64,000 bases of DNA, from positions 20,026 to 84,025 of the IMG/VR virus record IMGVR_UViG_2718218131_000011; one strand, written 5' to 3'. The position numbers and the translations under genes were made by a program. Shown piece after piece: positions 9,506 through 10,450 of this stretch. Under the pieces are notes generated by a model. The model searched no databases. It saw nothing but the letters and a program-made list of their open reading frames with translations, and was not told the DNA's origin. The stretch's first letter is position 1, and the number at the start of each line of letters is the position of its first letter. The DNA comes from a virus (lineage: Duplodnaviria > Heunggongvirae > Uroviricota > Caudoviricetes).

Positions 9506-9607
9506 AAGTTCCCTCCTACGTTGTCAGGAGGTAATGGTATGCAAAGTAACTTCTCAACCGGTCATGTTGCTTGACATCCTCCACGTCCTTTAGAGCGTGG
9601 AGGATGT

Positions 9608-10450
9608 GTGCGCCCAGCATGGGCGCGATCTTGGAGGTGAAAGCCCTCCCGCGAGCTGACCACAGCGAGCGAAATGAAGTGCAACTGCGTGAGGGCGACC
9701 GGGCGTGGGGAGGAAGCACGGAATGAACCCGTGAGCCGATGAACGAGAATCGGATATGAGGCGCGATGGAGCAAGGCGAGCAGGCACATCACTGCGAAGC
9801 TTTCGTGGTCAAGTCGAAGTCGCGCAGATCCGACGGTTGTGCGGGGAAGGATCGCGTTCTTACCTGGGGAGTTCTCGCCTCATGCCTGAAAGGGCAACGT
9901 CGTAAGACGGAGCGAGAAGTCAGCAGAGGCCGTAGTAGTCAGGACTCCGACGAAGGGCCGAACGAGAAGGAAAGCCAGAAGATATGACTCTTGACAGGAC
10001 ATTGCGTCAGAAGCCGGGGAAGCCCGGTACGGACCCGCATGCCGGGTGGTGTGGCAGGGGCGCAGCCCTTGTGCTCCCCCCTATGCCGATCAAGCAGAAC
10101 ATTGTGCTGGGCCTCTGACGCAGCTCCTTGATGGTCTTGGCATCGTGCTTAAGTGGATTGGTGTCGTCCCTGATAGGATCATGGAGGCAGAATGAAACTC
10201 AAAAATCCGGGATAGCACGCAAAACAGGCTGCACAAAAAGCGCAGGTTGCGTAGGAGTGAAATCCCGCTCCCAAAAAATGGTGCAGAAGTTGCGGCAGTG
10301 GTCATCCGACGCACTGGAAAATAACAAACCCGCCGTGACCAGAATCGGAGGCCTGAGGGAGTGACCGAAAAACCGGACAACCCAGGCAGCAAATACCCGC
10401 TGGATGAGGCATGGTTCCGGCAGATAATACCGAAAACCGCCAGACACACT
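9608..10450 (+). mobile_element. group II intron 5' fragment (domain I-III-like RNA, degenerate ORF region, no reverse transcriptase)
   Basis: Starts GTGCGCCCAGCATGGG (canonical GUGYG 5' end; close to the Ll.LtrB start as recalled); GC-rich with many GNRA-capped stems (e.g. CGUC-GUAA-GACG); domain-IV position has MKLKNPG then a stop; no RT-sized ORF on either strand; sits 1 nt after a perfect 11-bp stem-loop (9575-9606). Confidence 0.5.

What the first reader, a model, noticed from the sequence alone, without database searches (positions are those of the whole stretch)
9575..10450. Group II intron 5' fragment abutting a perfect stem-loop, with no reverse transcriptase
The sequence begins GTGCGCCCAGCATGGG, the canonical group II intron 5' end, one nucleotide after a perfect 11-bp hairpin (CATCCTCCACG...CGTGGAGGATG). 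The following ~850 bp is GC-rich structured RNA with GNRA tetraloops and no credible ORF; the domain-IV position reads MKLKNPG then stops. Insertion just downstream of a stem-loop is the habit of class C (terminator-targeting) introns. I could not find a domain V/VI, so this looks like a 3'-truncated or degenerate intron, at the site where P1 encodes cin.
Basis: partly seen in the sequence, partly recalled or inferred. Interest (0 to 1): 0.6.

Follow-up and report, generated by a model that had tools for sequence, protein, structure and literature searches.

The report
ORF-less class C intron relic
A 483-base remnant of a self-splicing, mobile "group II" intron sits precisely behind a DNA hairpin in a P1-like phage-plasmid; it kept both ends but lost its reverse-transcriptase gene by an internal deletion and now looks like an inert fossil.

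Summary
The group II intron is real, but it is shorter than flagged and it is not 3'-truncated. Comparison with an intron-free sister plasmid shows a precise 483-nt insertion, window 9608-10090 (GTGCG...CCGAT), one base after the 11-bp hairpin.

- **Homology:** its first 420 nt are 98% identical to a full-length 1832-nt E. coli chromosomal intron. Its last 69 nt match that intron's domains V and VI.
- **Deletion:** 1350 bp between two GCCCGG repeats are missing. That removed all but 15 codons of the reverse transcriptase/maturase and the first two bases of domain V.
- **Class:** the parent protein is class C (best solved relative GsI-IIC RT). Relatives sit after hairpins. The EBS1 loop (9786-9790) pairs 5/5 with the upstream exon and covaries across 19 relatives.
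- **Damage:** domain V is hit at three invariant positions and must share six bases with a competing hairpin.
- **Distribution:** every ORF-less copy inspected is at this one locus, and it diverges at the rate of the neighbouring pseudogene.

The most likely reading is an inactive, neutrally inherited relic. Window 10095-10452 is a decayed tape-measure gene fragment, not intron. This is an ordinary new member of a known kind.

The parts
9571..9607 (+). Target hairpin, which is the 5' exon. The stem is 11 bp, 9575-9585/9596-9606. In the intron-free state it is a perfect 15-bp palindrome, TTGACATCCTCCACG...CGTGGAGGATGTCAA. It resembles the right-end hairpin plus TCAA of IS609/IS200-IS605 (tnpB/insQ) elements.
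   Evidence: empty site L005; about 28 of 31 bases match the hairpin downstream of insQ in L007.. It is not followed by a T run. P1 homology stops at 9572.
9603..9607 (+). IBS1 (GATGT), the last 5 nt of the 5' exon.
   Evidence: It pairs 5/5 with EBS1 ACATC at 9786-9790. The same loop covaries with the upstream 5 nt in 19 relatives.
9608..10090 (+). ORF-less group IIC intron, 483 nt, 5' GTGCG ... CCGAT 3'.
   Evidence: Precise insertion relative to the empty site. Rfam hits. 98.3% identity to the 5' 420 nt and 94% to the 3' 69-nt end of the full-length intron in L007.
9613..9868 (+). Domain I. It contains the Rfam group-II-D1D4-3 match at 9689-9859.
   Evidence: Consensus fold of 22 sequences: 128 pairs, 48 of them with compensatory double changes..
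9786..9790 (+). EBS1 (ACATC), in the terminal loop of hairpin 9780-9795.
   Evidence: covariation with IBS1 across relatives.
9869..9959 (+). Domain II (9869-9921) and domain III (9928-9959). The Rfam group-II-D1D4-1 match is at 9877-9958.
9963..10021 (+). Domain IV remnant. The start codon of the lost intron-encoded protein is at 9984, and its first 15 codons run 9984-10028.
   Evidence: tblastn of the parental IEP finds residues 1-15 only..
10022..10027 (+). Deletion junction. This is the single surviving copy of the direct repeat GCCCGG; 1350 bp are missing relative to L007 (4415-4420 and 5765-5770).
   Evidence: Overlapping alignments.
10013..10028 (+). Domain IV hairpin (GCCGGG-GAAG-CCCGGU). 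Since the deletion it shares its 3' arm with the 5' strand of domain V, so the two structures are mutually exclusive.
   Evidence: hairpin pair probability about 0.90, domain V about 0.10 in the thermodynamic ensemble.
10020..10049 (+). Domain V, damaged. The parental CC at its base is replaced by AA, so the CGC triad reads AGC with an unpaired A. A10029 opposite C10038 breaks a G-C pair that is invariant in relatives.
   Evidence: 21/21 relatives have G-C. (these positions are invariant in 20 relatives). (non-canonical marks in the model alignment).
10053..10087 (+). Domain VI, with the bulged branch-point A at 10083. It has an extra C10063/C10076 mismatch. The 3' splice site follows T10090.
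10091..10093 (+). First bases of the 3' exon (CAA). C10091 is the presumed IBS3. Together with T9607 these bases form the TCAA at the hairpin foot.
10095..10452 (+). NOT intron. This is a decayed fragment (about 75% DNA identity, several frameshifting indels) of a P2-like phage tail tape-measure gene. It contains the 'MKLKNPG' mini-ORF.
   Evidence: Present in the empty-site plasmid. No protein-level match remains.
10511..11074 (+). Context: hexapeptide-repeat (serine) acetyltransferase gene. A sigma-70-like promoter lies at 10461-10489, downstream of the intron.
9176..9505 (-). Context: lydA holin, the first gene of the leftward dar operon. It diverges from the intron.

Best explanation
**Shown**
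- Window 9608-10090 is a 483-nt group IIC (bacterial class C) intron on the + strand.
- It is inserted precisely between T9607 and C10091, in the 3' arm of a 15-bp palindromic hairpin of a P1-like (IncY) phage-plasmid.
- The insertion has the signature of retrohoming. It is oriented 5' GTGCG...GAT 3'. Its EBS1 loop (ACATC) pairs perfectly with the 5 nt of upstream exon. The site looks like the right-end hairpin and TCAA of IS609/IS605-type tnpB elements, which close relatives of this intron occupy in E. coli and many other bacteria.
- Compared with a 98%-identical full-length E. coli intron, 1350 bp between two GCCCGG repeats are missing. That removed the reverse transcriptase/maturase from codon 16 onward and the first two bases of domain V.

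**Inferred**
- A full-length intron homed into this hairpin once. The ORF was then lost by slippage or illegitimate recombination at the 6-bp repeat. The remnant has since been passively inherited by one lineage of P1-like plasmids and prophages.
- It is most probably catalytically dead or severely crippled, and immobile. Domain V lost its two basal pairs, which include the first nucleotide of the catalytic triad. It carries a G-to-A change that breaks an invariant pair next to the catalytic bulge. Its 5' strand must be shared with a more stable domain IV hairpin.
- It lies in a non-coding spacer between divergent transcription units, upstream of the acetyltransferase promoter-like site. Failure to splice would therefore cost the host nothing.
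For: - **Rfam:** D1D4-3 and D1D4-1 hits at gathering threshold.
- **Empty site:** NZ_CP033848.1 defines the exact boundaries.
- **Parent intron:** the 5' 420 nt and the 3' 69 nt align to the full-length introns L007 and L003, with a 6-nt overlap at GCCCGG.
- **Parental protein:** it has RVT_1 and GIIM domains and no endonuclease domain. Its best solved relatives are IIC enzymes: GsI-IIC RT at 8e-129 and E.r. IIC at 3.5e-92, against IIB at 2e-42 and IIA at 6.5e-38.
- **Relatives:** all those whose upstream flank was held (19) sit after hairpins, either IS605-type right ends or Rho-independent terminators.
- **EBS1/IBS1:** covariation across relatives.
- **Fold:** consensus structure with 48 of 128 pairs showing compensatory changes.
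- **Domains V and VI:** a family-specific model hits 10020-10090 only, with 65.8 bits.
- **Damage:** the hits are at invariant positions. The competing hairpin is favoured about 9:1 in the ensemble, and reverting A10029 to G restores domain V as the minimum-energy structure.
- **Single origin:** the four other ORF-less copies inspected (L001, L006, L008, L009) share the junction and the domain V/VI defects and lie at the same lydA-acetyltransferase locus. All 34 plasmid records that cover at least 80% of the 941-nt flank-inclusive query have the same flanks.
- **Neutral rate:** intron substitution divergence of 1.4-2.1% is about that of the adjacent pseudogene, 1.9-2.2%.
- **No protein elsewhere:** no other IEP fragment is in the window. 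Genomes carrying the relic have a median of one place matching this intron.
Against: - Inactivity is inferred, not measured.
- All six domains, both splice-site consensus sequences, the branch-point A and a perfect EBS1-IBS1 pairing survive.
- The triad at the junction reads AGC, which is the canonical triad in other intron classes.
- Nearest-neighbour folding ignores tertiary contacts and protein chaperoning, so domain V might still form.
- The order of events is not resolved: deletion in place, or insertion of an already ORF-less copy mobilised in trans.
- No P1-like plasmid with a full-length intron at this site was found.
- One plasmid, NZ_CP021729.1, has a second matching place that I did not locate.
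Confidence: 0.8

Rival explanations
1. It is a non-autonomous but still functional mini-intron. The 483-nt RNA can self-splice, or splices with a maturase supplied in trans. It could be mobilised by a class C reverse transcriptase from a full-length intron in the same cell, and it may even have arrived at this site already ORF-less.
For: - All six domains, the GTGCG and AT termini, the branch-point A and a perfect EBS1-IBS1 pairing are retained.
- ORF-less bacterial and phage group II introns that may be mobilised in trans are discussed in the literature (PMC12350094).
- A 98%-identical full-length intron with an intact IEP exists in E. coli.
Against: - Three invariant domain V positions are altered, and domain V competes with a stable hairpin.
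- Domain VI has an extra mismatch.
- No ORF-less copy was seen outside this one locus.
- The full-length relative occurs in only 2 of 5426 complete E. coli genomes, and not in the carriers.
- The intron diverges like neighbouring junk DNA and has acquired indels.
Confidence: 0.15
2. This is the first reader's reading: a 3'-truncated 5' fragment of a group II intron spanning about 9608-10450, lacking domains V and VI.
For: - Rfam RF00029 (domains V/VI) gives no hit even at E up to 10.
- There is no long ORF in the interval.
Against: - Domains V and VI are at 10020-10090, shown by homology to two full-length introns and by a family model.
- RF00029 also misses them in intact relatives.
- Window 10091-10450 is present in the intron-free plasmid and is tape-measure gene debris.
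Confidence: 0.02
3. It is a domesticated structured RNA or DNA element. The remnant or its hairpin would be retained because it serves the phage-plasmid, for example as an insulator or terminator between the dar operon and the tail-fibre/acetyltransferase module, or as a regulatory 5' leader.
For: - It persists in more than 30 sequenced P1-like plasmids and prophages from several hosts and continents.
- It lies between divergent transcription units.
Against: - An otherwise similar plasmid lacks it.
- It shows no excess conservation relative to the flanking pseudogene.
- No T-run terminator follows the hairpin, and the acetyltransferase promoter-like site lies downstream of the intron.
- Persistence is fully explained by descent from one event.
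Confidence: 0.03

Closest known systems
Bacterial class C (IIC) group II introns, e.g. B.h.I1 of Bacillus halodurans, O.i.I1 of Oceanobacillus iheyensis and GsI-IIC of Geobacillus stearothermophilus
   Same: - Compact ribozyme, about 490 nt without the ORF.
- Inserted just after a stem-loop.
- Short EBS1-IBS1 pairing.
- The parental protein has RT and maturase domains and no endonuclease domain, and is most similar to GsI-IIC RT (PMC1702495 for the IIC habit).
   Different: - The ORF is deleted and domain V is damaged.
- The target here is not a Rho-independent terminator. It is an IS609/IS605-type right-end-like palindrome without a T run.
Full-length E. coli chromosomal intron in NZ_CP169399.1 (ltrA product WP_000186915.1), inserted at the right end of an insQ/tnpB element
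   Same: - 98.3% identity over the first 420 nt and 94% over the last 69 nt.
- Same upstream hairpin and IBS1 (GGAGGATGT) and same downstream CAA.
   Different: - It carries the intact 456-aa IEP and an intact domain V.
- It lies inside a real IS element. The window copy lies at an orphan hairpin in a phage-plasmid.
ORF-less or degenerate group II introns of bacteria and phages (reviewed in PMC4424553; phage survey PMC12350094; Enterobacterales fragments in PMC3522654)
   Same: - Ribozyme without an intron-encoded protein.
- Carried on a mobile element.
- Fits the picture of inactivated copies persisting on mobile genetic elements.
   Different: - Those phage ORF-less introns mostly interrupt genes and are presumed active. 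This one is intergenic and carries domain V lesions.
- The one IIC intron in that phage survey (Mycobacterium phage, OQ555808) has its RT.
IStrons (group I intron plus IS605/IS607 chimeras; PMC4227781, bioRxiv 10.1101/2023.11.20.567912)
   Same: The relatives of this intron also sit at the right end of tnpB elements, next to where the guide RNA ends. This comparison applies to the relatives, not to the window copy.
   Different: - It is a group II retroelement, not a group I intron.
- No evidence here of any functional interplay.
- The window has no IS body.

Membership tests
Group II intron (ribozyme) | Conserved 5' end GUGYG and 3' end AY | tested here: met
   GTGCG at 9608-9612 and AT at 10089-10090. 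The boundaries are fixed by the empty-site alignment.
Group II intron (ribozyme) | Domains I-IV recognised by covariance models | tested here: met
   RF02001 at 96.9 bits (gathering score 32) and RF01998 at 46.8 bits (gathering score 35).
Group II intron (ribozyme) | Domain V with a catalytic triad and a 2-nt bulge, and domain VI with a bulged A | tested here: inconclusive
   Both are present at 10020-10090, with branch-point A10083. Domain V lacks its two basal pairs, has one broken invariant pair and competes with a hairpin. RF00029 gives no hit, but it also gives none in intact relatives.
Group II intron (ribozyme) | EBS1-IBS1 pairing with the 5' exon | tested here: met
   ACATC (9786-9790) pairs with GATGT (9603-9607), 5/5. 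The pairing covaries in 19 relatives.
Group II intron (ribozyme) | Splicing activity | not testable with these tools
   Needs RT-PCR or in vitro splicing.
Bacterial class C / IIC | Insertion immediately downstream of a stem-loop (terminator or other inverted repeat) | tested here: met
   The insertion is one base after the 11-bp stem. Every relative whose upstream flank was held (19 of 21) also follows a hairpin.
Bacterial class C / IIC | Class C intron-encoded protein (RT plus X domains, no En domain) | tested here: met
   This was tested on the 98%-identical parent, not on the window copy. The parent has RVT_1 and GIIM only, and its best PDB relatives are IIC RTs. The window copy has no IEP.
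Bacterial class C / IIC | Absence of EBS2-IBS2; EBS3-IBS3 in place of delta-delta' | not tested
   I did not map EBS3 or search for an EBS2.
Autonomous mobile group II intron (retroelement) | Intact reverse transcriptase/maturase ORF in domain IV | tested here: not met
   Only codons 1-15 remain, and no other IEP fragment is in the window.
   The 3' end is present and abuts the original target sequence.
IS200/IS605-family right end (as the nature of the target hairpin) | Subterminal hairpin followed by a TCAA-type end, adjacent to tnpA/tnpB | tested here: inconclusive
   The hairpin and TCAA match the insQ right end in about 28 of 31 bases. No tnpA or tnpB adjoins it in the window: lydA is 70 nt away. 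It may be an orphan end.

The most novel reading that the evidence does not exclude
The relic may be by-catch of a class C intron lineage that specialises in the right-end hairpin of IS200/IS605 (tnpB/insQ) transposons. That lineage inserts 3 nt inside the transposon end. From general knowledge of TnpB systems, that position lies between the omega-RNA scaffold and its guide, and between the TnpA-recognised hairpin and its cleavage site. If so, these introns would disable both transposition and guide-RNA formation unless they splice. That would make them a group II counterpart of the group I IStron conflict. The P1-like hairpin would be an orphan right end that acted as a decoy site. A weaker variant of the reading is that the 483-nt copy itself is still spliceable or mobilisable in trans.
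Probability: 0.3. Interest if true: 0.6.

Novelty: new member of a known kind. Interest (0 to 1): 0.3.

Why it matters
**Annotation.** More than 30 sequenced P1-like phage-plasmids and prophages carry an unannotated 483-nt ribozyme relic, followed by tape-measure gene debris. Some records call spurious 'hypothetical proteins' across it.

**Phage biology.** It adds a temperate enterobacterial phage-plasmid to the short list of phage genomes known to have been invaded by group II introns. It is also an example of how an intron-encoded ORF is lost: a 6-bp repeat deletion that fuses domain IV to domain V.

**Methods.** It shows that Rfam's domain V/VI model misses this IIC lineage, so 'D1-D4 hit without D5/D6' should not be read as truncation.

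**Wider lead.** The more interesting point lies outside the window. Close relatives of this intron repeatedly occupy the right end of tnpB transposons, whose homing-site sequence is present in about 90% of complete E. coli genomes.

Tried and rejected
- **Rfam RF00029** (domains V/VI) at gathering threshold and at E up to 10 gave no hit. It also fails on intact relatives, so the result is uninformative.
- **Megablast of 9560-10500 against the phage collection** gave no match. The element is only in records filed as plasmids or chromosomes.
- **IS66 lead.** I first read 10022-10093 as an IS66-family end. It matches DNA next to IS66 transposases and many Sinorhizobium replicons, and E.c.I3 is reported to target IS679. 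I rejected this once the same 69 nt were found to be the last bases of full-length introns in Polaromonas and E. coli.
- **Single-sequence minimum-energy fold of the 483 nt** has z = -2.2 and does not reproduce the ribozyme architecture. It was useful only for exposing the domain IV/domain V conflict.
- **tblastn of a P2-like tape-measure protein against 9400-10700** gave nothing. The fragment is recognisable only at the DNA level because of frameshifts.
- **ON470608,** cited in the phage-intron survey as an intergenic intron in an E. coli phage, is an unrelated lambdoid phage with a full-length intron.
- **Literature searches** for P1-like or phage-plasmid plus group II intron found only an integron-borne intron RT. 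Searches for IIC plus IS605/TnpB found only RT-HNH introns inside cyanobacterial IS605 elements.
- **The second matching place in plasmid NZ_CP021729.1** was not found within the 30 kb fetched.
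Full report
**1. What is in the sequence**

CATCCTCCACG (9575-9585) and CGTGGAGGATG (9596-9606) form a perfect 11-bp stem around a 10-nt loop. After one more base (T9607) the sequence reads GTGCGCCCAGCATGGG.

Rfam at its curated thresholds reports two group II intron matches on the + strand: group-II-D1D4-3 at 9689-9859 (96.9 bits, E 1.9e-18) and group-II-D1D4-1 at 9877-9958 (46.8 bits). The domain V/VI model RF00029 finds nothing, even at E up to 10. That is presumably why a reader would conclude the intron is truncated.

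**2. Exact boundaries**

The 941-nt interval is 97-100% identical in 34 E. coli/Klebsiella plasmids of 90-270 kb; those I inspected are P1-like (IncY). It is absent from the phage collection.

One sister plasmid, NZ_CP033848.1 (L005), has the same flanks but no intron. There the sequence runs ...TTGACATCCTCCACGTCCTTTAGGGCGTGGAGGATGT|CAAGCAGAACATTG....

- The insertion in the window is therefore exactly 9608-10090, which is 483 nt (GTGCG...CCGAT).
- The unoccupied site is a perfect 15-bp palindrome, and the intron interrupts it 3 nt before its end.
- Everything from 10091 onward is also present in the empty-site plasmid, so it is not intron.

**3. It is an internal-deletion derivative, not a truncation**

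- Window 9608-10027 aligns end to end with the first 420 nt of full-length introns. The match is 98.3% to an E. coli chromosomal copy (L007, NZ_CP169399.1) and 85% to a Polaromonas plasmid copy (L003).
- Window 10022-10090 aligns with the last 69 nt of those same introns, immediately downstream of their ltrA genes.
- The two alignments overlap on GCCCGG. This hexamer occurs twice in the parent (L007 4415-4420 and 5765-5770) and once in the window (10022-10027).
- 1350 bp between the repeats are missing, which is the pattern expected from slippage or illegitimate recombination.
- What is left of the intron-encoded protein is codons 1-15 (9984-10028). tblastn finds no other piece of it in the 64-kb window.

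**4. Class**

The parental protein (456 aa) has RVT_1 and GIIM domains and no endonuclease domain. Among solved structures it is far closer to IIC enzymes than to other classes:

| Class | Solved relative | E-value |
|---|---|---|
| IIC | GsI-IIC RT | 8e-129 |
| IIC | E. rectale IIC maturase | 3.5e-92 |
| IIB | T.el4h | 2e-42 |
| IIA | LtrA | 6.5e-38 |

I collected relatives of the protein from 185,579 species genomes. For 21 full-length introns both ends could be placed, and 19 of these had upstream flank in the fetched locus. All 19 sit directly after a hairpin.

- Some hairpins are textbook Rho-independent terminators (L033, L059, L062).
- Many others are the motif ...GGAGGATGT|intron|CAA, which lies 15-80 nt downstream of genes with OrfB_IS605 and Cas12f1-like_TNB domains, that is, tnpB.

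This is the known habit of class C introns (PMC1702495, PMC3522654).

**5. Ribozyme anatomy**

I made in-silico ORF-deleted versions of the 21 relatives and aligned them with the window copy. The RNAalifold consensus has 128 pairs. Of these, 67 show at least two canonical pair types and 48 show double compensatory changes.

Mapped to the window, the domains are:

| Domain | Window coordinates | Note |
|---|---|---|
| I | 9613-9868 | |
| II | 9869-9921 | |
| III | 9928-9959 | |
| IV remnant | 9963-10021 | |
| V | 10020-10049 | |
| VI | 10053-10087 | bulged A at 10083, seven nucleotides before the 3' splice site |

The loop at 9786-9790 (ACATC) is complementary to the 5 nt upstream of the intron (GATGT). 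In the relatives the same loop changes in step with their different upstream exons: AACAC/GTGTT, AAGAG/TTCTT, TGTCT/GGACA, CGAAC/GTTCG and others. This identifies EBS1 and IBS1, and it shows that the window copy arrived by bona fide reverse splicing into this site.

A covariance model built only from the natural domain V/VI of 20 relatives finds one hit in the whole window, at 10020-10090, with 65.8 bits and E about 7e-12.

**6. State of repair**

Domain V is almost invariant in the relatives: AACCGCC(C/T)GGUGCGGACCCGCA(U/C)GCC(G/A)GGUGG. The window copy departs from it in four ways.

- **Basal pairs lost.** The basal CC is replaced by AA from domain IV. Two C-G pairs are lost, and the CGC triad becomes an AGC whose A faces G.
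- **Invariant pair broken.** G-to-A at 10029 breaks a G-C pair found in 21 of 21 relatives. The pair lies next to the two-nucleotide bulge.
- **Shared bases.** After the deletion, the six bases GCCCGG are at once the 3' arm of a domain IV hairpin (10013-10028) and the 5' strand of domain V.
  - In the thermodynamic ensemble of the 483-nt RNA the hairpin wins about 9:1.
  - In the parental context domain V is the minimum-energy structure.
  - Reverting A10029 to G in silico restores domain V as the minimum-energy structure.
- **Domain VI mismatch.** Domain VI has an additional C/C mismatch at 10063/10076, where all relatives pair.

These are model-based arguments for loss of function. They are not a measurement.

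**7. One event, passively inherited**

- The four other ORF-less copies I inspected lie at the same lydA-acetyltransferase locus and share the junction and the domain V/VI lesions. They are two plasmids from E. coli, one from Klebsiella, and a chromosomal P1-like prophage.
- In the plasmid collection, no match spans the deletion junction outside this locus.
- In 5426 complete E. coli genomes there are 31 such copies; the two I inspected there lie at this locus. The full-length intron occurs in only two genomes, neither of them a carrier.
- Between the two plasmid sub-lineages the intron differs by 1.4-2.1% in substitutions, plus a 6-nt and some 1-nt indels. This is like the adjacent pseudogene (1.9-2.2%) and like the coding genes. 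There is no sign of special constraint.

**8. The surroundings**

- Homology to phage P1 (about 98%) runs through darA, hdf, lydB, lydA and the LPdar promoter region, and stops at window 9572. That point is P1 31252, the end of lydC. P1 then has lydC, cin and the invertible C segment.
- In this lineage those genes are replaced by a module that begins with the hairpin.
- Window 10095-10452 is about 75% identical at the DNA level to an internal part of P2-like tape-measure genes, with several frameshifting indels.
- Next comes a promoter-like site at 10461-10489.
- Next is a hexapeptide acetyltransferase gene at 10511-11074.
- On the other strand lie the tail-fibre assembly and tail-fibre genes.
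- The hairpin has no T run on either strand, so it is not an intrinsic terminator.
- About 28 of 31 hairpin bases, and the TCAA at its foot, match the right end of the E. coli insQ (IS609-type) element that hosts the full-length intron. That right-end sequence is present in 4879 of 5426 complete E. coli genomes.
- The hairpin is most simply read as an orphan or mimic of an IS200/IS605 right end. It offered this intron lineage its preferred target.

**9. Mechanism and verdict**

Shown:
- It is a IIC intron.
- It is a precise insertion with EBS1-IBS1 pairing behind a hairpin.
- It lost its ORF through a 1350-bp deletion at a 6-bp repeat.
- It has lesions in domains V and VI.
- It has a single origin.

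Inferred:
- A full-length intron retrohomed once into single-stranded hairpin DNA of a P1-like replicon, then lost its ORF.
- The remnant no longer splices efficiently or moves.
- It is tolerated because it lies in a spacer upstream of the acetyltransferase promoter-like site and behind the divergent dar promoter.

The main rival is that it is still a trans-dependent, active mini-intron. I cannot exclude this without experiments, and I give it about 15%.

**10. Novelty**

ORF-less and degraded bacterial group II introns are well known, as are class C introns behind hairpins (PMC4424553, PMC3522654, PMC1702495). A 2025 survey found 20 group II introns in 29,015 phage genomes. Only one was IIC, in a Mycobacterium phage, and it had the same Rfam pattern as here: D1D4-3 then D1D4-1, with no D5/D6 hit (PMC12350094).

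I found no paper describing this relic in P1-like phage-plasmids, and the plasmid records leave it unannotated. It is a new member of a known kind, of modest interest.

The recurring occupation of tnpB-transposon right ends by its relatives deserves a separate look. Earlier literature that I could find mentions only RT-HNH introns inside cyanobacterial IS605 elements (PMC4810608) and group I IStrons.

Noticed in passing
L007 3965-4003; L003 2975-3012; L012, L014, L015, L018, L019, L025 (upstream flanks): Close relatives of the intron repeatedly sit at ...GGAGGATGT|intron|CAA. This is 3 nt inside the right end of IS200/IS605-family tnpB (insQ) elements, in E. coli, Polaromonas, Methylotenera, Nitrospirota, Verrucomicrobia and others. 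From general knowledge, that position separates the omega-RNA scaffold from its guide and the TnpA hairpin from its cleavage site.
   Followed up: partly
L007 3880-4000 as query: The insQ 3' end with its hairpin, which is the apparent homing site, occurs in 4879 of 5426 complete E. coli genomes (median 2 copies). The full-length intron is in only 2 genomes, so the site is almost entirely unoccupied.
   Followed up: no
L003 4841/4842; L018 2956/2957: Head-to-tail tandem IIC introns: a second copy starts immediately after the last base of the first. This is consistent with repeated homing into the same 5' exon (hairpin plus IBS1), which stays intact after the first insertion.
   Followed up: no
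window 10095-10452: Decayed fragment of a P2-like phage tail tape-measure gene, about 75% DNA identity with multiple frameshifts. It lies between the hairpin and the acetyltransferase gene and appears to be a scar of the recombination that replaced P1's lydC-cin-C segment.
   Followed up: yes
window 10511-11074 (+), overlapping 11038-11655 (-): A hexapeptide-repeat (serine/WcaB-like) acetyltransferase gene occupies the place of P1's cin and invertible segment. Its 3' end overlaps the tail-fibre assembly gene on the other strand by 37 nt. It is much more divergent between sub-lineages (about 92%) than its neighbours (97-99%).
   Followed up: no
window 29883-30057 (+): Rfam sok antitoxin RNA (114.9 bits), which implies a hok/sok-type post-segregational killing locus on this P1-like plasmid.
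   Followed up: no
window 26231-26283 and 26351-26436 (+): P1 immunity region RNAs: the c4 antisense RNA (70.8 bits) and its a1/b1 target (56.2 bits). These confirm the P1-family identity of the window.
   Followed up: no
window 11114-11312 (-): Sub-threshold Rfam match to IS009 (75.9 bits against a gathering score of 117) inside the tail-fibre assembly ORF. It is probably coding-sequence homology rather than an RNA gene.
   Followed up: no
L094 15009-16260 (NZ_CP021729.1); L005 1-265: Some P1-like plasmids carry a complete insQ/tnpB element next to ddrA, with an unoccupied right-end hairpin (GGAATCCACGCCCTTCGGGGCGTGGAGGATGTCAC). NZ_CP021729.1 also has a second match to the intron and tape-measure fragment that I did not locate.
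   Followed up: partly
L002 3501-3900 (pAA-type plasmid CP056609.1); L004 3001-3071; ETEC/EAEC plasmids: Other fragments of the same or a sister IIC intron, at 90-96% identity and covering various sub-ranges, are scattered on E. coli virulence plasmids, often beside IS66-family elements.
   Followed up: no
L001 6207-6559 (AP027478.1): One plasmid record annotates two 'hypothetical protein' CDSs (222 and 135 nt) inside the intron RNA. These are almost certainly spurious gene calls.
   Followed up: no
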